In this document: piece after piece, positions 35,073 through 42,238 of the stretch
Layout of the letters: every line of letters starts with the position of its first letter
How positions within the stretch are numbered: the first letter of the stretch is position 1
Sequence record: OQ243221
Strand: one strand, 5' to 3'
DNA: 46,604 nt
Source of the DNA: Escherichia phage vB_EcoS-UDF157lw
Made by a program: the position numbers and the translations under genes
The notes under the pieces: model-generated
Told to the model about the DNA's origin: nothing
Seen by the model: the letters and a program-made list of their open reading frames with translations, nothing else
Databases searched by the model: none

Positions 35073-35113
35073 AGCACTTTTTGTTAAACATTGGTTTAGA
35101 TGGATGTTATTAT
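35073..35113 (+). promoter_or_regulatory. Composite promoter-like element: TAGCACtttttGTTAAA, 21 nt, TATTAT
   Basis: Lies in the divergent intergenic region; the -10 sits inside the track ORF start, which argues for the downstream ATG 35151. Confidence 0.45.
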
Positions 35114-35150
35114 ATCGCCAATCGAACGAACATTAAAGGCATTTGATATT

Positions 35151-37094
35151 ATGGAAAACCGATTGAAAACAATACAAAAACAGATTGAAGAATTGGGCGA
35201 AGATAAGATTAAAGAGATTCAAACTAAATTCACCTCTTCTAACGGTATGGTTCCGTATAGCTATCAGTGTGTTATGTACAATGAGATTGCAAAGCGCATT
35301 AGTCGCTATGAGCATCCATTTATCGCAATGGCTTCAGTTTCTGCTGGTAAGACTCTGGTTTTTGGTATGGTTGCTAAGCGTTGCTCTGAGCTTGGCTTGC
35401 CTATGCTTGTTCTTGCTCGTCAGGCAGAGCTGGTTAGCCAGAATGCTTCTGAGATTTCTGATTACGGGGTTCCTAACTCCATTTATTGCTCTGGGCTTGG
35501 AATAAAATCATCTTATTTCCCTGTGGTGGTTGGCTCTGAGGGCACAGTAGTTGGCGGGCTTAAGAAGTCACTTGGCGATTTCTGTCCTGCGGTAGTTGCT
35601 ATTGATGAGTGTCACCATATTGATGACCAGGACATAGCGGAGGCAATTGATAACAATGAGACTGCGCAACAGGCATTAGATAAGGGGCGTAGCCAGTATA
35701 CGGTCATCATCCTGACTTTAATGGAGCGCTGCCGTGCTAAGTATGGCAAGAATCTCCGTATCTTTGGACTGACTGGTTCTCCTTTCCGTGGAACTACGCC
35801 AATAGTTGTTGAAAACAAAAAGGAGTTGGGATTTTGGCGTGAGACGGTCACAAATATCGATACAAACTACCTGGTCGAGTTCGGTTCCGTGGTTCCGACA
35901 AACTTTGGTGCTACTGATGGCGTTGGTTACGACCTGTCAGAGTTTGATGCATCATCTGAAGATGGTGTTCAGGATTACACTAAAGCCCAGCTTGAAGCCA
36001 TGGATAAAAAGATTCAGGCATCTGGAACAATGACAGCGGAGATAATGAAGAAAGTATGGCTTGCCGCGAAAAACAGGAATGGAGTTCTGGTAACATGCGC
36101 AGGTGAGCGCCATTGCCACGAAGCCGCAAGTTACCTTCCTGAAGGTGAAAAGTTCTGCATTATAACTGGAAAGACTGGCGAGAAGCAGCGCAAGGAGTTG
36201 CTTGATAAGTGCTTTAGCGGGGAGATTAAATATTGCTTTCAGGTTCAGGCGCTAACCACTGGCGTAAATGTGCCTACATGGGATACAAGCGTTATTCTGC
36301 GTAAGATTGGTAGCCTTACACTCCTGGTTCAGCTACTTGGTCGAGGAATGCGTAAGCTTAAGAAGCTCCATGAAGATAAAGGAATGGTCAAGAATGACCA
36401 TTTGGTACTGGACTTCGCAGGAACGATGGACTCTATGGCATCATTGTACTTCAATCCAATTCTTGAGCAGGCTCAATATCAGCTACGAAAGAGTAATGGC
36501 AAGGAGACTAAGCAGTGTCCAGTATGCGGAACAGAGAACAGCTTCTTTGCTCGACGTTGCATGCATATTGATGAGAATAATAATCGCTGCGAATATTTCT
36601 GGGTTAGTCGCACATGTGAAGACCAGAAAGACCCACGAACCGGAAAGGTTATCGTTAAAGGCTGCGGAGTTCAGAATGACGTTGCAGCTAAGATTTGTAG
36701 GGGTTGCGATTGCACTTTGCTTGATCCAAATCTCAACTTAAGCGGCAAACATTACCGCAAGAACGACTGGTTTGATGTTGTTGACTTTAAGGTTGGGCTA
36801 ACAAAGAACCAATCAGGAATCATCTACAACTACATCCTTGATGATGGCATGGGTGGGACATTCAAAGCTCATGAGGTTTTCTTTGTAGAGTCTGACCATC
36901 GAGTATGTAAAACGCTCTGGTTGAACAATGGAATTAAAGGTCACGTAGTCGACATGAACGCTAAGCGATATATGGCTGCATATCGCAATGCTCGCAAGAT
37001 TATGGAGTATGCGCAGTACATCCATGCCCCTAAGAGGGTAACTCACCGCAAGACCGCTAAAGGTGGCGATAATATTGCTAATAAGGAGTTCTAA
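35151..37094 (+). CDS. SF2 DEAH-type DNA helicase with C-terminal Cys-rich zinc-ribbon region (647 aa)
   Basis: Walker A SAGKT, motif II DECHH, further helicase motifs; C-terminal CPVCG...CRGCDC cluster. Confidence 0.85.
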   Translation: MENRLKTIQKQIEELGEDKIKEIQTKFTSSNGMVPYSYQCVMYNEIAKRISRYEHPFIAMASVSAGKTLVFGMVAKRCSELGLPMLVLARQAELVSQNASEISDYGVPNSIYCSGLGIKSSYFPVVVGSEGTVVGGLKKSLGDFCPAVVAIDECHHIDDQDIAEAIDNNETAQQALDKGRSQYTVIILTLMERCRAKYGKNLRIFGLTGSPFRGTTPIVVENKKELGFWRETVTNIDTNYLVEFGSVVPTNFGATDGVGYDLSEFDASSEDGVQDYTKAQLEAMDKKIQASGTMTAEIMKKVWLAAKNRNGVLVTCAGERHCHEAASYLPEGEKFCIITGKTGEKQRKELLDKCFSGEIKYCFQVQALTTGVNVPTWDTSVILRKIGSLTLLVQLLGRGMRKLKKLHEDKGMVKNDHLVLDFAGTMDSMASLYFNPILEQAQYQLRKSNGKETKQCPVCGTENSFFARRCMHIDENNNRCEYFWVSRTCEDQKDPRTGKVIVKGCGVQNDVAAKICRGCDCTLLDPNLNLSGKHYRKNDWFDVVDFKVGLTKNQSGIIYNYILDDGMGGTFKAHEVFFVESDHRVCKTLWLNNGIKGHVVDMNAKRYMAAYRNARKIMEYAQYIHAPKRVTHRKTAKGGDNIANKEF

Positions 37095-37483
37095 TGGTTA
37101 AGGTTTTTCACGACAAAACAAGCACGGACAAGGCTAAAGAGGTTGTTCACCAAATAAATTCAATAGCTTGGGTTCGCCACAACCATCCAGAGATATTTGC
37201 TTTTCACGTGAAGAATGAAGGTCTCAAGTCTATCGGCACAGCAATGAAGGACAAGCAGGAGGGAGTAATTAAGGGTGTATCAGATATTCTACTGATTGGA
37301 CCAAATGGCTTTGCCGCAATAGAGCTTAAGCGAGCAATAAAATCAGATAGCAAGGTTTCAAAGGAGCAAAAGGAGTTCCTGGAAAAGGTATCAGAAACAG
37401 GAGGTTACGCGGCAATCTGTTATGGGTTTGAAATGTTTAAGTTGGCAATTACAGATTATCTATCAAATAGCACGAATTGCTAA
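37094..37483 (+). CDS. VRR-NUC-type nuclease (129 aa)
   Basis: Motif GVSDILLIGPNGFAAIELKRA (PD-(D/E)XK-like D...E.K); start overlaps the helicase stop (TAATG). Confidence 0.6.
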   Translation: MVKVFHDKTSTDKAKEVVHQINSIAWVRHNHPEIFAFHVKNEGLKSIGTAMKDKQEGVIKGVSDILLIGPNGFAAIELKRAIKSDSKVSKEQKEFLEKVSETGGYAAICYGFEMFKLAITDYLSNSTNC

Positions 37484-37954: not shown

Positions 37955-38151
37955 TTACTGCGACTTGCGTAATGACGAACGGCTCATTCACCCTGCTCAA
38001 TGAGTATGAATTCAAACTTGACCCGATTAATGACCAGGTTGAAATAGTTAGCGATGACGGATTTGCATGGAAGTTACATAATGAATTTGATGGGTACTAC
38101 GGGTGTAATGATGCGAAAGGTAAGCATGTAAGTTTTCTTGTTTATGAGTAA
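37951..38151 (+). CDS. Hypothetical protein (66 aa)
   Basis: ATG 37951 preceded by GGAGGA and overlapping the upstream stop (ATGA). Confidence 0.45.
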   Translation: MITATCVMTNGSFTLLNEYEFKLDPINDQVEIVSDDGFAWKLHNEFDGYYGCNDAKGKHVSFLVYE

Positions 38152-38153
38152 AT

Positions 38154-38195
38154 AGCACTTTTTGTTAAAACTAAAATACAAGGATGGATTATATT
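38154..38195 (+). promoter_or_regulatory. Composite promoter-like element: TAGCACtttttGTTAAA, 21 nt, TATATT
   Basis: Follows the stop of the previous gene. Confidence 0.45.
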
Positions 38196-38225
38196 AATTA
38201 CATTAGCAAATGAGAGGGTTAAGAG

Positions 38226-38351
38226 ATGAAAATTGTAGACAAAGAGATGTTCGAGATTGCGCAGTCTTTCGCAAATGACGCAGTTAAGACTGGATCTAAA
38301 TATTGCTGGATGTGCGCTCTAGAATCTTTAAAAATGGCTTACGGCCTATGA
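38226..38351 (+). CDS. Small hypothetical protein (41 aa)
   Basis: Hand-translated MKIVDKEMFEIAQSFANDAVKTGSKYCWMCALESLKMAYGL; stop overlaps next ATG (ATGA). Confidence 0.3.
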   Translation: MKIVDKEMFEIAQSFANDAVKTGSKYCWMCALESLKMAYGL

Positions 38352-38587
38352 TAGTTGAAACCGGACGCGCCGCTGTATGGGCGCATTGTGGAGATGCGGG
38401 ATTGCAGGATGACATCAAGATGATAGGTAAATACTTTGATATTGATGACATATCTGTAGTTTTCAATGGGAAGTTTAGTTATATGAACCAGCGGCCACGC
38501 AAGTATGTAAGAGTTCCAGCAACGCCTAGCCTCGCAATGTATCGTGAGGAAGGTAAGAAGATATTTAAGAAAGGTGCGAAGAAATGA
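38348..38587 (+). CDS. Hypothetical protein (79 aa)
   Basis: Translationally coupled chain of small ORFs. Confidence 0.4.
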   Translation: MIVETGRAAVWAHCGDAGLQDDIKMIGKYFDIDDISVVFNGKFSYMNQRPRKYVRVPATPSLAMYREEGKKIFKKGAKK

Positions 38588-38841
38588 ATTTACCTGGTCT
38601 GGATTTTGATGAGAGTAAGTATCAGGTTGTGTTTTTTGGTGAGAAGCCTTATCGGAAGATTCCTTTCTCTGAGTGGATTCCTCCGGACTACCTCGATGTA
38701 CTGGTGCAAATTGAGATTGGTAAAGCTGAGTTGATGTACTATTCGCCAGGTTGCAATATGATGATGCCTAGTGAGTATTCACCAGCAATTTCTGCTTTAG
38801 AAACTGAGTTTCTTGATTACTGGCTAAAAGAAGTAAAATAG
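38584..38841 (+). CDS. Hypothetical protein (85 aa)
   Basis: ATGA overlap with the previous gene. Confidence 0.45.
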   Translation: MNLPGLDFDESKYQVVFFGEKPYRKIPFSEWIPPDYLDVLVQIEIGKAELMYYSPGCNMMMPSEYSPAISALETEFLDYWLKEVK

Positions 38842-38881
38842 CACTTTTTGTTAAAACACATCGCCATGGATGGCGTATAGT
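38839..38881 (+). promoter_or_regulatory. Composite promoter-like element: TAGCACtttttGTTAAA, 22 nt, TATAGT, leader CATCGAAACGAGAG
   Basis: Spacer holds hairpin CGCCAT-gg-ATGGCG. Confidence 0.5.
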
Positions 38882-38908
38882 GTGTTCATCGAAACGAGAG
38901 ACGATTCA

Positions 38909-38977
38909 GATGAAAACATTACTACCGTTGATGGCTATGCCATTAACCTTTATAATCATGTACTTCATAATCTGCTA
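38909..38977 (+). CDS. Putative 22-aa hydrophobic peptide (MKTLLPLMAMPLTFIIMYFIIC)
   Basis: Immediately follows the conserved leader and RBS GAGAGACGA; entirely hydrophobic; too short for the ORF track. Confidence 0.25.
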
Positions 38978-38992
38978 ACAGGAAATTAAATA

Positions 38993-40126
38993 ATGGCTAT
39001 AGCTAAAATCACCAACGAAGAGTTAAAGCAAGAACTGGCTAACGGTATGACTAACAAGGCAATCGCAGAGAAGTACGGTATGAATATTCGTAACGTAGAG
39101 CTGCGTCGCAGCAAGTTGGCTAAGGCTGGGGATGGTCACGGTCGCGATGTGAGTAACCTAATTCCTCAGGGCTACATGGTTAAAGGTGTATCTAGCCTTG
39201 TTGATAATGATGGCAATGTGAAGTTGCAATGGGTTAAGTCCTCTATTGATGCAGAGAAGCTTGAGGAGATGATGAATCAAGCGCGAGAGGCATTCTCTAG
39301 CGAGCTACCAAAAGAAAAAGCAGTTAAATCTGAAGGTCTGAATTTTGATGAAGATACTTTAGCTATGTATCCAGTATTTGACCTTCACATTGGCGCAATG
39401 GCCCACAAGCATGAGTGCGGAGAAAACTACGACACAGCAACGGCAGAGAAAGTAATGAACGATTATTTTGACTACGCCGTACAGAAATCTCCAAATTCAA
39501 AGAATGCTGTACTAGTGCTAGGAGGTGATCTGCTTCATTATGATTCTTTGGAAGCCAAAACTCCAGCCAGTGGTCACATCCTGGACAGTGACAGTCGCTA
39601 CGCCAAGATTGTTTATGTTTGCATTCGAGCGGTTCGCCGCGCAATTCGAAACATGCTTAGCAAACATGAAAACGTAGAGGTTAAAGTTATATCTGGTAAT
39701 CATGATGAAAGTGGTATGGTTTGGTTGCGGGCTGCGCTTGCTGCATTTTATGAGGAAGAGCCACGCGTTAGTATTGATGTTAGTCCCGCGGCAATGATGG
39801 TAACTAAGTTTGGTTCTACAATGCTTGGTTTCACTCACGGGCATCAAATGCGTAAAGCTGATACTCGCCTTTCGGTTATGGCTACTGACTGGCGACGTGA
39901 CTTTGGTTTAAGTGATTATGTATACACCCACTCAGGCCACTGGCATTCACAGAAGATTACAGAGACAAATCTTGGTATTGATGAGGTTCATGGTCAGCTT
40001 GGTTCACCAGATGCATATAGTGCGAATGGTGGATGGCGCTCACAAAGGCAGGCCGCGGTAATCATCTATCATAAAGAGTTTGGTGAGGTTGGTCGCTTTA
40101 TCTGCCGTCCAGAAATGTTCAAATAA
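38993..40126 (+). CDS. Calcineurin-like metallophosphoesterase with N-terminal HTH-like domain (377 aa)
   Basis: Phosphoesterase motifs D-L-H (FDLHIG), GGDLLH, GNHDE, GH.H (HSGHWH); N-terminal about 110 aa with HTH-like TNKAIAEKYGMNIRNVELRRSKL. Confidence 0.8.
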   Translation: MAIAKITNEELKQELANGMTNKAIAEKYGMNIRNVELRRSKLAKAGDGHGRDVSNLIPQGYMVKGVSSLVDNDGNVKLQWVKSSIDAEKLEEMMNQAREAFSSELPKEKAVKSEGLNFDEDTLAMYPVFDLHIGAMAHKHECGENYDTATAEKVMNDYFDYAVQKSPNSKNAVLVLGGDLLHYDSLEAKTPASGHILDSDSRYAKIVYVCIRAVRRAIRNMLSKHENVEVKVISGNHDESGMVWLRAALAAFYEEEPRVSIDVSPAAMMVTKFGSTMLGFTHGHQMRKADTRLSVMATDWRRDFGLSDYVYTHSGHWHSQKITETNLGIDEVHGQLGSPDAYSANGGWRSQRQAAVIIYHKEFGEVGRFICRPEMFK

Positions 40127-40145
40127 TATCACTTTTTGTTAAAGC
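40127..40145 (+). promoter_or_regulatory. Motif variant TATCACtttttGTTAAA without clear -10
   Basis: Upstream half degenerate (TATCAC); no TATAGT-like hexamer at the expected spacing. Confidence 0.25.
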
Positions 40146-40191
40146 CCTTCGAGGCTTTTGAGATGCGTCAGCTACAGATATAGGAATCAAA

Positions 40192-40389
40192 ATGATTACA
40201 GAGATGATTTTAGTTGCAAGCCTTTCATCTCCATTGGTATCTCAACAGTATTGTGAACTTGGAAAAGAGATTTACCATGAAGGAGTGGAATTAAGAACGG
40301 TTGTTGATTGGCTTAATCACAGCACGATGAATATTGATGATAAAAAGATTGTCCTTGAGTGCTATATAGTGGAGTCAAATAAAGTCTAA
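40192..40389 (+). CDS. Hypothetical protein (65 aa)
   Basis: ORF in track; the stop is followed by TAGCAC motif. Confidence 0.45.
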   Translation: MITEMILVASLSSPLVSQQYCELGKEIYHEGVELRTVVDWLNHSTMNIDDKKIVLECYIVESNKV

Positions 40390-40432
40390 ATAGCACGAAT
40401 TGCTAAAACGAAAATCAAAAGATGGGGTATAG
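40390..40432 (+). promoter_or_regulatory. Composite promoter-like element: TAGCACgaaTTGCTAAA, 22 nt, TATAGT, leader ...AAACGAGAGGA
   Basis: Hairpin GATGGGGTA-TAG-TTACCCCATC spans the -10. Confidence 0.55.
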
Positions 40433-40465
40433 TTACCCCATCTAAACAAACGAGAGGATACAAAG

Positions 40466-40651
40466 ATGGCTAAATTCACACAATCAGATGCACAAATCGA
40501 AGTTAAAGATGTTGGTTTTGGTAAGACCTTTAAGATTGCGCAGGCATACGGCTCTAGCGAAGAAGATGTAAAAGTTGACACTATCAATCTTACTGCTAAG
40601 AATGCTCGTGAAATTGCCTACGCAATCCTAGATGCACTTGGAGAGCGATAA
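40466..40651 (+). CDS. Hypothetical protein (61 aa)
   Basis: RBS gagagga; canonical promoter element upstream. Confidence 0.45.
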   Translation: MAKFTQSDAQIEVKDVGFGKTFKIAQAYGSSEEDVKVDTINLTAKNAREIAYAILDALGER

Positions 40652-40839
40652 TGCTTCAAACAATTAAAGCCGACATGGTTAAGGTGGGTGATGAAGTTTT
40701 GTTCTTAAACTGCCCACCGCAGGTAGTTAAGGCTACAAGCCTTGAGTATTACCCTGGCTGTATTTTCGTAATGATTAAGACCATTGGTGGTAACTGCTTC
40801 CCAATTAATGTAAACACACTTATTTGCGTAAACCGTTAA
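40651..40839 (+). CDS. Hypothetical protein (62 aa)
   Basis: Start overlaps previous stop (TAATG). Confidence 0.45.
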   Translation: MLQTIKADMVKVGDEVLFLNCPPQVVKATSLEYYPGCIFVMIKTIGGNCFPINVNTLICVNR

Positions 40840-40851
40840 GAGATTATCAAA

Positions 40852-41025
40852 ATGACTAAATTATTCTGCGTTAGCAACAAATCAAAATCACTGCCTTTCA
40901 CTGTAAACAACCCTTACAGTGGTGAGTACCAGGGGGATGGTAATTATAAGATTTATGGCGATGACATGACTTGGATCTTCGCTCCCATTGATGGAGAGCT
41001 GGTGGAATTCATTATAGCAGACTAA
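40852..41025 (+). CDS. Hypothetical protein (57 aa)
   Basis: Hand-translated ORF MTKLFCVSNKSKSLPFTVNNPYSGEYQGDGNYKIYGDDMTWIFAPIDGELVEFIIAD; followed by terminator. Confidence 0.4.
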   Translation: MTKLFCVSNKSKSLPFTVNNPYSGEYQGDGNYKIYGDDMTWIFAPIDGELVEFIIAD

Positions 41026-41051: not shown

Positions 41052-41080
41052 AGGCGGCCTTTATGGCTGCCTTTTTTCTT
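41052..41080 (+). terminator. Rho-independent terminator upstream of lysis cassette
   Basis: GGCGGCC-ttta-GGCTGCC hairpin (one G-U) followed by TTTTTTCTTTT. Confidence 0.65.
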
Positions 41081-41139
41081 TTATGTCAAAGTTTAATATC
41101 TGGTATTATTTAATCAAATCAACTTAAAGAGGCCGCAAC

Positions 41140-41837: not shown

Positions 41838-42223
41838 TTCTGGCAATTATCTTGCTGACAGGGTGCTCTGCTATGTCAGCCATTTCTGATTTCTTACCAG
41901 TAAAGGATGGCGTAGAGGCAACCGCGCAGGTTGGTGAGTCCAACCAGAAAACAGGAGTTGGATTGTCAAATCAAACAGACAAATCTAGCTCAACAGAAAG
42001 CGACATGCGCAACTCAACTAACAGAGACGTAGATTCATCAAGCCAGAAAAAGACAGCCGCTACAGGACTATCAGCCAACACAATAACAGCTGAAAAGATT
42101 GAAATTCATAGCACTGAAAATTCTGGCTTTGACTCTTTAGTCTGGGGTATTCTGGCTGGATTAGTTTCAGGTTTGCTAACTTACTTCGCTTTAAGATTCG
42201 CAGGAAACAAAAAAGGAGCCTAA
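41819..42223 (+). CDS. Unimolecular spanin (u-spanin, T1 gp11-like, 134 aa)
   Basis: N-terminal lipoprotein signal with lipobox LTGC and C-terminal TMD LVWGILAGLVSGLLTYFAL, the defining u-spanin topology. Confidence 0.75.
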   Translation: MRFGVVVLAIILLTGCSAMSAISDFLPVKDGVEATAQVGESNQKTGVGLSNQTDKSSSTESDMRNSTNRDVDSSSQKKTAATGLSANTITAEKIEIHSTENSGFDSLVWGILAGLVSGLLTYFALRFAGNKKGA

Positions 42224-42238
42224 TGGCTCCTTTATTTT
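42208..42238. terminator. Bidirectional terminator between convergent rightward and leftward operons
   Basis: GGAGCC-taat-GGCTCC flanked by AAAAAA upstream and TTTATTTT downstream. Confidence 0.65.

What the first reader, a model, noticed from the sequence alone, without database searches (positions are those of the whole stretch)
38993..40126. HTH-like domain fused to a calcineurin-type metallophosphoesterase in the early operon
All hallmark phosphoesterase motifs are present (D-x-H, GDxxH, GNHD/E, GHxH) after an N-terminal domain of about 110 aa with an HTH-like segment. Phage phosphoesterases can be protein phosphatases, nucleotide/cyclic-oligonucleotide phosphodiesterases or Mre11-like nucleases, and the substrate cannot be told from sequence. 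An early-expressed enzyme of this type is a candidate for degrading host immune signalling nucleotides or modulating host phosphorylation.
Basis: partly seen in the sequence, partly recalled or inferred. Interest (0 to 1): 0.5.

Follow-up and report, generated by a model that had tools for sequence, protein, structure and literature searches.

The report
Phage DNA-binding phosphoesterase, probable nuclease
This gene of a T1-like coliphage joins a small DNA-binding domain to a metal-dependent phosphate-ester-cutting enzyme; it belongs to a very large phage family that is catalogued but untested, and the evidence points to DNA or nucleotide processing, not to destroying host immune signals or dephosphorylating proteins.

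The parts
38993..40126 (+). CDS of the HTH-metallophosphoesterase (377 aa plus stop); identical to Rogue1 gp57 / phrog_704
39014..39124 (+). Three-helix HTH DNA-binding domain (aa 8-44), resolvase / LuxR / sigma-region-4-like
39164..39304 (+). Family-specific beta-hairpin plus helix (aa 58-104) with P58, G65, S67, G74, W80 and K82 conserved; no structural match found
   Evidence: W80 in 138/145 representatives, K/R82 in 134/145
39305..39346 (+). Variable linker (aa 105-118), lower model confidence
   Evidence: pLDDT 69-72; poorly conserved
39347..40123 (+). Binuclear metallophosphoesterase domain (aa 119-377); it ends at the C-terminus with no capping or Rad50-binding extension
39380..39388 (+). 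Motif I, D130-x-H132
39524..39538 (+). Motif II, G178-D-L-L-H182 (Mre11-type GDxxH)
   Evidence: aligns in register with T. maritima Mre11 GDLLHS, though the hit itself is not significant
39560..39598 (+). Family-specific conserved block T190-x2-S-G-H195-x-L-D198-x-D200-x-R202 between motifs II and III
39695..39706 (+). Motif III, G235-N-H-D238
39836..39844 (+). Motif IV, H282-G-H284
39935..39946 (+). Motif V, G315-H-W-H318
38910..38978 (+). Unannotated conserved micro-ORF (22 aa, MKTLLPLMAMPLTFIIMYFIIC) ending 14 nt before the phosphoesterase start; possibly co-translated, function unknown
   Evidence: not annotated in NC_019718
35100..37483 (+). Context: SF2 DNA helicase (35100-37094) and VRR-NUC-type nuclease (37094-37483), upstream on the same strand and syntenic in Drexlerviridae
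41052..41082 (+). Context: terminator-like hairpin with T-run that separates the phosphoesterase block from the holin/endolysin/spanin cassette

Best explanation
The protein is a catalytically competent, two-metal phosphodiesterase held on DNA by its own N-terminal HTH. It acts without a Rad50/SbcC-type ATPase.

I propose that it hydrolyses DNA phosphodiester bonds, by exonucleolytic trimming and/or endonucleolytic nicking that leaves 5'-phosphate and 3'-OH ends, as in Mre11/SbcD and PolD-DP1. This would break DNA down to 5'-mononucleotides or to clean ends.

Where they are present, the next two genes would finish the job: a PNKP-type HAD 3'-phosphatase and a dNMP-kinase-like kinase, followed by DNA ligase in T7-like podoviruses. 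They would do so by nucleotide salvage and/or end healing. The window phage carries only the phosphoesterase, and there the most likely role is degradation or processing of DNA during infection, with host-chromosome breakdown the leading candidate.

Shown: domain architecture, an intact active site, fold relationships, family size and gene linkage. Inferred: substrate, products and biological role.
For: Active site: all seven metal ligands and the motif III His are present and conserved.

DNA binding: the HTH superposes on sequence-specific DNA-binding HTHs and is kept in 143 of 145 representatives.

Linkage: the phosphoesterase -> HAD_PNKP -> kinase cassette is found in 33 of 80 Drexlerviridae loci. 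It is found in 38 of 79 loci retrieved starting from the HAD gene, always with the same order and strand. It occurs in three divergent T7-like podoviruses, where ligase follows and a 5'-3' exonuclease and EndoVII lie upstream. In marine L092 the HAD and kinase are fused. MazG-like or dNMP-kinase genes are directly adjacent in 15 of 72 marine loci. In Drexlerviridae the gene lies downstream of a helicase and a VRR-NUC nuclease.

Host DNA: a T1-like phage (Bas12) is restricted by a defence that fires on m6-dAMP released by chromosome degradation, so such phages release dNMPs from host DNA.

Precedents from my own knowledge: T4 gp46/47 (Mre11/Rad50) feeds host DNA to the gp1 dNMP kinase. T5 A1, a predicted metallophosphatase, is needed for host DNA degradation.
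Against: No biochemical or genetic data exist for any member in the library I searched.

The cassette is absent from the window phage and from most lineages. Outside it the gene's neighbours vary widely, including tail genes, endolysin and terminase.

The phage already encodes a RecE-like exonuclease, Erf, SSB and VRR-NUC, so a further nuclease is not obviously required.

Dhillonvirus carries a homolog yet resists ApeA, a defence thought to sense host-DNA breakdown products.
Confidence: 0.45

Rival explanations
1. It is an end-healing phosphoesterase and not a nuclease. It opens 2',3'-cyclic phosphates or removes 3'-phosphate or blocked termini on broken DNA or RNA (for example tRNA cut by host anticodon nucleases). 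It would work with the HAD 3'-phosphatase, the kinase and a ligase as a repair, counter-defence pathway, like the metallophosphoesterase module of bacterial Pnkp.
For: The adjacent HAD is of the PNKP phosphatase type (Pfam PF25109, E 3e-18 to 8e-17). HAD and kinase are fused in L092, mimicking a bifunctional PNKP. DNA ligase follows in three divergent podoviruses. From my own knowledge, Clostridium thermocellum Pnkp combines kinase, metallophosphoesterase and ligase modules.
Against: The kinase matches dNMP-kinase families (phrog_139; Pfam DNMK for the L136 kinase ORF) and not the T4 Pnk kinase part of phrog_505. As far as I know the Pnkp metallophosphoesterase is lambda-phosphatase-like, and that branch scores poorly here. 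Two phosphoesterases for one step would be redundant. An HTH fits duplex DNA better than tRNA. The window phage has no HAD, kinase or ligase.
Confidence: 0.2
2. It is a phosphodiesterase for small nucleotides (cyclic mono-, di- or oligonucleotides, Ap4A, NAD-derived signals) that blunts host signalling-based immunity.
Confidence: 0.1
3. It is mainly a transcription or replication regulator. The HTH binds specific phage or host sites (or RNA polymerase, like sigma region 4), and the phosphoesterase domain acts as a sensor or an accessory activity.
For: The HTH resembles LuxR/NarL and sigma-region-4 domains. One homolog is annotated 'transcriptional regulator' (R4C). The gene often lies at module boundaries.
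Against: The catalytic residues are under strong purifying selection (135 of 145 intact), whereas the HTH sequence is the most variable part. No conserved operator was found upstream: the candidate palindromes are not conserved and lie inside a micro-ORF.
Confidence: 0.07
4. It is a protein Ser/Thr/Tyr phosphatase that alters host or phage phosphoproteins, like lambda NinI.
For: It belongs to the same superfamily, and lambda encodes such an enzyme.
Confidence: 0.03

Closest known systems
Mre11 / SbcD nucleases (double-strand-break repair; T4 gp47)
   Different: There is no capping domain and no Rad50/SbcC-binding C-terminus. No Rad50/SbcC gene is annotated in the phage or found beside the gene in other phages. 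It carries an N-terminal HTH plus beta-hairpin instead. Identity is only 12-19%, and no profile match is significant.
PolD small subunit DP1 (archaeal 3'-5' proofreading exonuclease)
   Different: 10% identity. No OB fold and no DP2 polymerase partner. T1-like phages encode no DNA polymerase.
T5 pre-early protein A1 (needed for host DNA degradation)
   Same: A phage-encoded predicted metallophosphatase whose distant structural relatives are DSB-repair nucleases and polymerase proofreading subunits. It is a possible functional analogue, and T5 pairs it with the Dmp nucleotidase.
   Different: No detectable homology beyond the NHD motif (hhalign probability 0.3%). It belongs to a different PHROG (1745), is 556 aa long and is restricted to Demerecviridae. 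Its nuclease activity is also untested.
MJ0936 / YfcE / Vps29-type small phosphodiesterases
   Different: These are minimal 165-185-aa domains with no DNA-binding domain. Their physiological substrates are unclear, and Vps29 is non-catalytic.
Lhr-associated nuclease MPE / PdeM (Pseudomonas putida)
   Different: The score is far below the family cut-off (15 against 150 bits). It has no HTH and is much smaller (about 200 aa).
Lambda NinI and other PPP protein phosphatases
   Same: Same superfamily, and phage-encoded.

Membership tests
Calcineurin-like metallophosphoesterase superfamily | Five motifs supplying seven metal ligands plus the catalytic His: DxH, GDxx, GNH[DE], H, GHxH | tested here: met
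   D130/H132, D179, N236/H237, H282, H316/H318; conserved in the family
Calcineurin-like metallophosphoesterase superfamily | Beta-sandwich phosphoesterase fold | tested here: met
Calcineurin-like metallophosphoesterase superfamily | Pfam PF00149 gathering score | tested here: not met
   19.7 bits against 21.5; only 5 of 94 homologs reach E<0.01. The family is divergent, and this does not overturn the motif and fold evidence.
phrog_704 ('DNA repair exonuclease') | Full-length profile match | tested here: met
   E=1.7e-155, aa 4-376 on profile positions 2-389 of 390. The name is a predicted annotation, not a tested function.
Mre11/SbcD nuclease family | Nuclease-domain motifs, including the motif II His | tested here: met
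   GDLLH and GNHD; correct register against T. maritima Mre11 and E. coli SbcD
Mre11/SbcD nuclease family | Significant sequence or profile similarity | tested here: not met
   PDB profile search E about 1; hhalign against SbcD probability 2.7%; no SbcD_C or Mre11_DNA_bind Pfam hit
Mre11/SbcD nuclease family | C-terminal capping domain and Rad50/SbcC-binding region | tested here: not met
   The protein ends with the phosphoesterase core; median C-terminal extension is 2 aa in 145 representatives
Mre11/SbcD nuclease family | Partner Rad50/SbcC ATPase encoded in the genome or next to the gene | tested here: not met
   None annotated in Rogue1. None beside the gene in 11 annotated phages of other groups or in 171 clustered loci.
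Mre11/SbcD nuclease family | Mn2+-dependent exo/endonuclease activity on DNA | not testable with these tools
   Needs biochemistry
PPP protein phosphatases (lambda NinI type) | GDxHG, GDxVDRG and GNHE signatures | tested here: not met
HTH DNA-binding domains (resolvase / LuxR / sigma region 4 type) | Three-helix bundle with a helix-turn-helix | tested here: met
HTH DNA-binding domains (resolvase / LuxR / sigma region 4 type) | Actual DNA binding and its specificity | not testable with these tools
   Needs EMSA or ChIP; no conserved operator was found upstream
Known anti-defence signal-degrading enzymes / known defence proteins | Homology to a catalogued system | tested here: not met
   No PADLOC hit. 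The listed top fold matches are metallophosphoesterases and include no anti-defence enzyme. Drexlerviridae are sensitive to CBASS. Homology to MisA of Metis/PUA-Cal-HAD was not tested because I had no sequence.

The most novel reading that the evidence does not exclude
The HTH-phosphoesterase is the unidentified enzyme by which T1-like and many other siphophages, and some podophages, break the host chromosome down to mononucleotides. It would be a Rad50-independent, self-targeting Mre11-like exonuclease. It would also be the source of the dNMP and dinucleotide 'danger signals' sensed by defences such as Metis/PUA-Cal-HAD. Mutants lacking it would escape those defences, as denA mutants of T-even phages do.
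Probability: 0.22. Interest if true: 0.6.

Novelty: new variant of a known kind. Interest (0 to 1): 0.4.

Why it matters
The family occurs in about 4% of deposited phage genomes (2,016 of 50,697 records) and in thousands of metagenomic clusters. It is a core gene of Drexlerviridae, Guernseyvirinae, Dhillonvirus and many Vibrio and marine phages. Its database name, "DNA repair exonuclease", rests only on remote similarity.

If it is a Rad50-independent, HTH-guided nuclease, three things follow:
- It would define a new working mode for Mre11-like enzymes.
- It is a concrete candidate for host-DNA degradation in T1-like phages, which recent work links to immune sensing of degradation products.
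- With its 3'-phosphatase and kinase partners it would form a compact salvage or end-healing module.

The practical outcomes here are a corrected annotation (the PNKP "kinase" is a phosphatase), an unannotated conserved micro-ORF, and clear, cheap experiments.

Tried and rejected
- **Operator/autoregulation.** Two GCCAT/ATGGC palindromes lie in the 151-nt upstream gap. They are weak statistically and not conserved in other Drexlerviridae, and one is just the M-A-M-P codons of a conserved micro-ORF. Rejected.
- **Homology to T5 A1.** hhalign probability 0.3% and a different PHROG. It is at most an analogue.
- **Rad50/SbcC or any universally conserved partner.** None in the annotated contexts or in BLAST clustering of 181 loci. 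Outside Drexlerviridae only a mobile HNH/EndoVII ORF recurred at BLAST level.
- **Direct sequence match to solved structures.** Nothing significant.
- **Defence or anti-defence catalogues.** No PADLOC hit.
- **Jedunavirus 'HAD' and 'polynucleotide kinase' ORFs near the gene.** Not confirmed by Pfam, so not counted.
- **Iterated search seeded with a dNMP kinase.** It drifted into HAD hits through the L092 fusion. I resolved this by inspecting the ORFs and profiling them separately.
- **Literature.** Ten searches found no functional study of the family. The old T1 genetics on host-DNA degradation is not in the library. ApeA sensitivity data are mixed and not decisive.
- **Model coordinates.** These are not exposed to scripts, so I could not examine active-site geometry, electrostatics or the HTH/catalytic-domain interface.

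Full report
**What is there.** The window is a T1-type siphophage of the genus Rogunavirus (Drexlerviridae). Bases 38000-41000 are 99.6% identical to phage vB_EcoS_Rogue1. The protein is 100% identical to Rogue1 gp57, named "DNA repair exonuclease" in RefSeq and "Phosphoesterase" in UniRef.

Motif IV, H282-G-H284, is there too.

**Is it more than chance?** Yes.
- The protein matches PHROG 704 over its whole length at E=1.7e-155.
- Pfam Metallophos is just below its gathering score (19.7 against 21.5 bits), and sequence searches of the PDB find nothing significant. The family is therefore a divergent branch.
- An AlphaFold2 model built on 94 homologs is confident (mean pLDDT 89.7, pTM 0.74). 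Its matches among solved structures are metallophosphoesterase-fold proteins.

**Family.**
- tblastn finds the protein in 2,016 of 50,697 phage records, and 1,949 of those cover at least 80% of it. They are phages of Escherichia, Klebsiella, Salmonella, Vibrio, Campylobacter, Rhodobacter, Ruegeria, Synechococcus and other hosts.
- An exhaustive HMMER search of 1.84 billion cluster representatives gives 4,677 clusters at E<=1e-3 and 997 at E<=1e-30, nearly all 375-420 aa long.
- Across 145 representatives, 135 keep the nine-residue catalytic set (D, H, D, H, N, H, H, H, H). 143 have at least 30 residues ahead of the hairpin, which is room for the HTH. The median C-terminal extension is 2 aa.
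- Family-specific conserved features are the hairpin residues W80 and K82, a block T190-xx-SGH195-x-LD198-x-D200-x-R202 between motifs II and III, R258, and a C-terminal D340-x-YA-xx-GGWRS block.

**Architecture.** The model shows four parts:
- three short helices (aa 8-16, 21-28, 32-44);
- a long beta-hairpin (61-70, 76-85) and a helix (87-102);
- a lower-confidence linker;
- the phosphoesterase core from about residue 119 to the C-terminus.

The window protein's HTH is weak on its own (GerE E=0.038). In homologs, however, the same region hits many generic HTH families significantly: HTH_8 at 2.8e-8, HTH_24 at 9.7e-8 and Sigma70_r4_2 at 5.2e-7.

Motif II is GDLLH, and it aligns in register with Mre11's GDLLHS. 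All identities are only 10-19%. Profile comparisons with E. coli SbcD (probability 2.7%) and lambda phosphatase (0.5%) are insignificant.

The enzyme therefore resembles the nuclease branch most, but it is not a demonstrable member of Mre11/SbcD. It has no capping or Rad50-binding region, and no Rad50/SbcC gene exists in the phage or next to homologs.

**Genomic context in the window.** The gene lies in a rightward block with this order:
- SF2 helicase (35100-37094);
- VRR-NUC-type nuclease (37094-37483);
- six small ORFs of unknown function;
- a 151-nt gap;
- the phosphoesterase;
- four more small ORFs;
- a terminator-like hairpin (41052-41072);
- holin, endolysin and spanin.

This synteny is fixed in Drexlerviridae. 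The phage separately encodes a RecE-like exonuclease, Erf and SSB. Nothing in the sequence shows when the gene is expressed.

**Context elsewhere.** Outside Drexlerviridae the position is very variable:
- in an oppositely oriented island inside the tail module, with a superinfection-immunity gene and Ant (Jerseyvirus);
- between the tail-assembly gpI-like gene and the J-like central fibre, on the same strand (three marine loci);
- between endolysin and terminase (Dhillonvirus JL1);
- before endolysin and head genes (Vibrio K366);
- after tail genes and before the integrase region (R4C and Synechococcus JY40).

BLAST clustering of 4,124 ORFs from 181 loci found no universally conserved neighbour. 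"Early operon" is thus neither proven here nor a conserved property of the family.

**A recurrent cassette.** Profile searches do show one repeated association.
- In JK06 the gene just downstream is labelled "polynucleotide kinase". It is in fact a stand-alone PNKP-type HAD 3'-phosphatase (Pfam HAD_PNKP, E=7.5e-19; DxDGT motif).
- A homolog lies downstream on the same strand in 33 of 80 Drexlerviridae loci. In 32 of them it is immediately adjacent (offsets of about 1,660 nt are an ORF-calling artefact, as one search shows).
- It is followed by a P-loop kinase of the dNMP-kinase family (phrog_139, E=3.5e-47).
- The T7-like podovirus phiEa1H has the order 5'-3' exonuclease, EndoVII, phosphoesterase, HAD_PNKP (E=7.6e-17), the same kinase family (E=7.7e-39) and DNA ligase. 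Two further podovirus contigs keep this order although they are highly divergent: connector proteins 36% identical, phosphoesterases 51-54%.
- In marine locus L092 the HAD and kinase are fused into one ORF that ends 35 nt upstream of the phosphoesterase gene.
- I then ran the test in reverse, starting from HAD_PNKP-type genes in viral contigs. Of 79 loci, 38 had the phosphoesterase 0-44 nt upstream and the kinase abutting downstream on the same strand. HAD homologs of 39% identity or less had neither partner.
- In other lineages the direct neighbours include MazG-like dATP/dGTP diphosphohydrolase domains (15 of 72 marine loci, plus R4C) and a T4-gp1-type dNMP kinase.
- The window phage has no HAD_PNKP homolog, and no such kinase is annotated in the near-identical Rogue1 genome.

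**Interpretation.** Five lines of evidence converge on a nucleic-acid or nucleotide phosphodiesterase, most likely one that acts on DNA without an ATPase partner:
- an intact two-metal site;
- a conserved DNA-binding domain;
- the fold ranking;
- the helicase and VRR-NUC context;
- the cassette with a 3'-phosphatase, a dNMP-kinase-like enzyme and ligase.

Two roles fit this.
- **DNA breakdown feeding nucleotide salvage.** This follows the logic of T4 gp46/47 plus gp1, from my own knowledge, and of T5 A1 plus Dmp.
- **Cleaning of broken ends for repair.**

I favour the first for phages that carry the gene alone. The kinase partner is of the dNMP-kinase type, not the Pnk type, and MazG-like enzymes recur beside the gene. 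In addition, a T1-like phage (Bas12) is restricted by PUA-Cal-HAD, a defence activated by m6-dAMP released during chromosome degradation (related Metis work). This suggests that such phages release mononucleotides from host DNA, and no nuclease has been assigned to that step. All of this is inference.

The protein-phosphatase signatures are absent, and PPP enzymes are poor structural matches. On immune-signal degradation, BASEL Drexlerviridae carry the gene (for example bas03_0050). Several Type I CBASS operons of different CD-NTase clades restrict them at least 10,000-fold, and escape maps to the prohead protease. The protein has no PADLOC hit. A narrow activity against other signals is not excluded.

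**Novelty and verdict.** The gene and its family are already in the databases, and the window copy is identical to a deposited protein. In ten literature searches I found no experimental characterisation or solved structure. The architecture (HTH plus hairpin plus an Mre11/DP1-like core, with no capping domain and no ATPase partner) differs from every characterised metallophosphoesterase subfamily. I rate it a new variant of a known kind with moderate interest. The most useful outputs are the phosphoesterase/3'-phosphatase/kinase cassette, a sharp genetic prediction (loss of the gene should reduce host-DNA degradation and allow escape from Metis/PUA-Cal-HAD), and several annotation corrections.

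Noticed in passing
window 38910-38978 (+): An unannotated 22-codon ORF (MKTLLPLMAMPLTFIIMYFIIC) ends 14 nt before the phosphoesterase start. A hydrophobic 22-29-aa peptide with the pattern P-x3-[AF]-x-I-x-Y-x-[IL]-[IV] ends 1-14 nt upstream of the gene in 68 of 81 Drexlerviridae loci, across at least 9 lineages with diverged DNA. It is absent from the marine (0/70) and Jersey-like (0/15) clades and is not annotated in NC_019718.
   Followed up: partly
L184 5124-5597 (JK06 JK_61); L044 9160-9648; L185 5169-5666: Genes labelled 'polynucleotide kinase' or 'kinase phosphatase' (phrog_415) hold only the HAD 3'-phosphatase domain of PNKP (Pfam PF25109). The kinase is a separate downstream ORF of the dNMP-kinase family, phrog_139. 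The database name is misleading.
   Followed up: yes
L092 1682-2842: A marine viral contig encodes a single ORF that fuses the HAD_PNKP-type phosphatase to the dNMP-kinase-like kinase. The domain order is the reverse of T4 Pnkp, and the ORF lies 35 nt upstream of the HTH-phosphoesterase gene.
   Followed up: partly
L149 7366-13028; also L150, L157: In three marine viral contigs the HTH-phosphoesterase gene is inserted on the same strand between a lambda gpI-like tail assembly gene and the J-like central tail fibre gene. That implies late co-transcription or a moron-like insertion.
   Followed up: partly
L184 3872-5121 (JK06 JK_64/JK_63): In the 2005 JK06 record the phosphoesterase gene is split into two overlapping CDSs, and the helicase genes are also fragmented. 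These are probably frameshift sequencing errors and not real pseudogenes.
   Followed up: no
window 38000-41000 compared with AHP42, C119, AKS96 and phiKP26: Close relatives differ from the window by an HNH homing-endonuclease insertion within this 3-kb region: 91% query coverage in two pieces, with an HNH endonuclease annotated under the match. I did not determine the exact insertion point.
   Followed up: no
plasmid records CP124687.1 (Paraclostridium bifermentans, 49.6 kb) and CP088689.1 (E. coli, 44.1 kb): Two 'non-mobilizable plasmids' of phage-genome size encode full-length homologs (59.8% and 44.9% identity). The first is as similar to the window protein as Klebsiella Webervirus homologs are, yet it is assigned to a Gram-positive anaerobe. 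They are probably phage genomes or contaminants deposited as plasmids.
   Followed up: no
window 41052-41082 (+) and 42212-42233 (-): A strong terminator-like hairpin (8-bp stem with 6 GC pairs, then a T-run) lies between the last small ORF after the phosphoesterase and the holin gene. A second lies after the spanin, where convergent transcription meets (the latter is annotated in Rogue1).
   Followed up: no
literature: The bacterial defence systems Metis and PUA-Cal-HAD are themselves a calcineurin-like phosphoesterase paired with a HAD phosphatase. The phage cassette found here pairs the same two superfamilies. I could not test whether this is more than coincidence because I had no MisA or MisB sequences.
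   Followed up: no
L044 6379-7107; L055 6376-7107: Webervirus-type Drexlerviridae carry an ORF of about 242 aa with an NPPY motif between the VRR-NUC gene and the phosphoesterase. From the motif it looks like a Dam-like N6-adenine methyltransferase. I did not profile it, and the corresponding stretch of the window holds only small ORFs.
   Followed up: no
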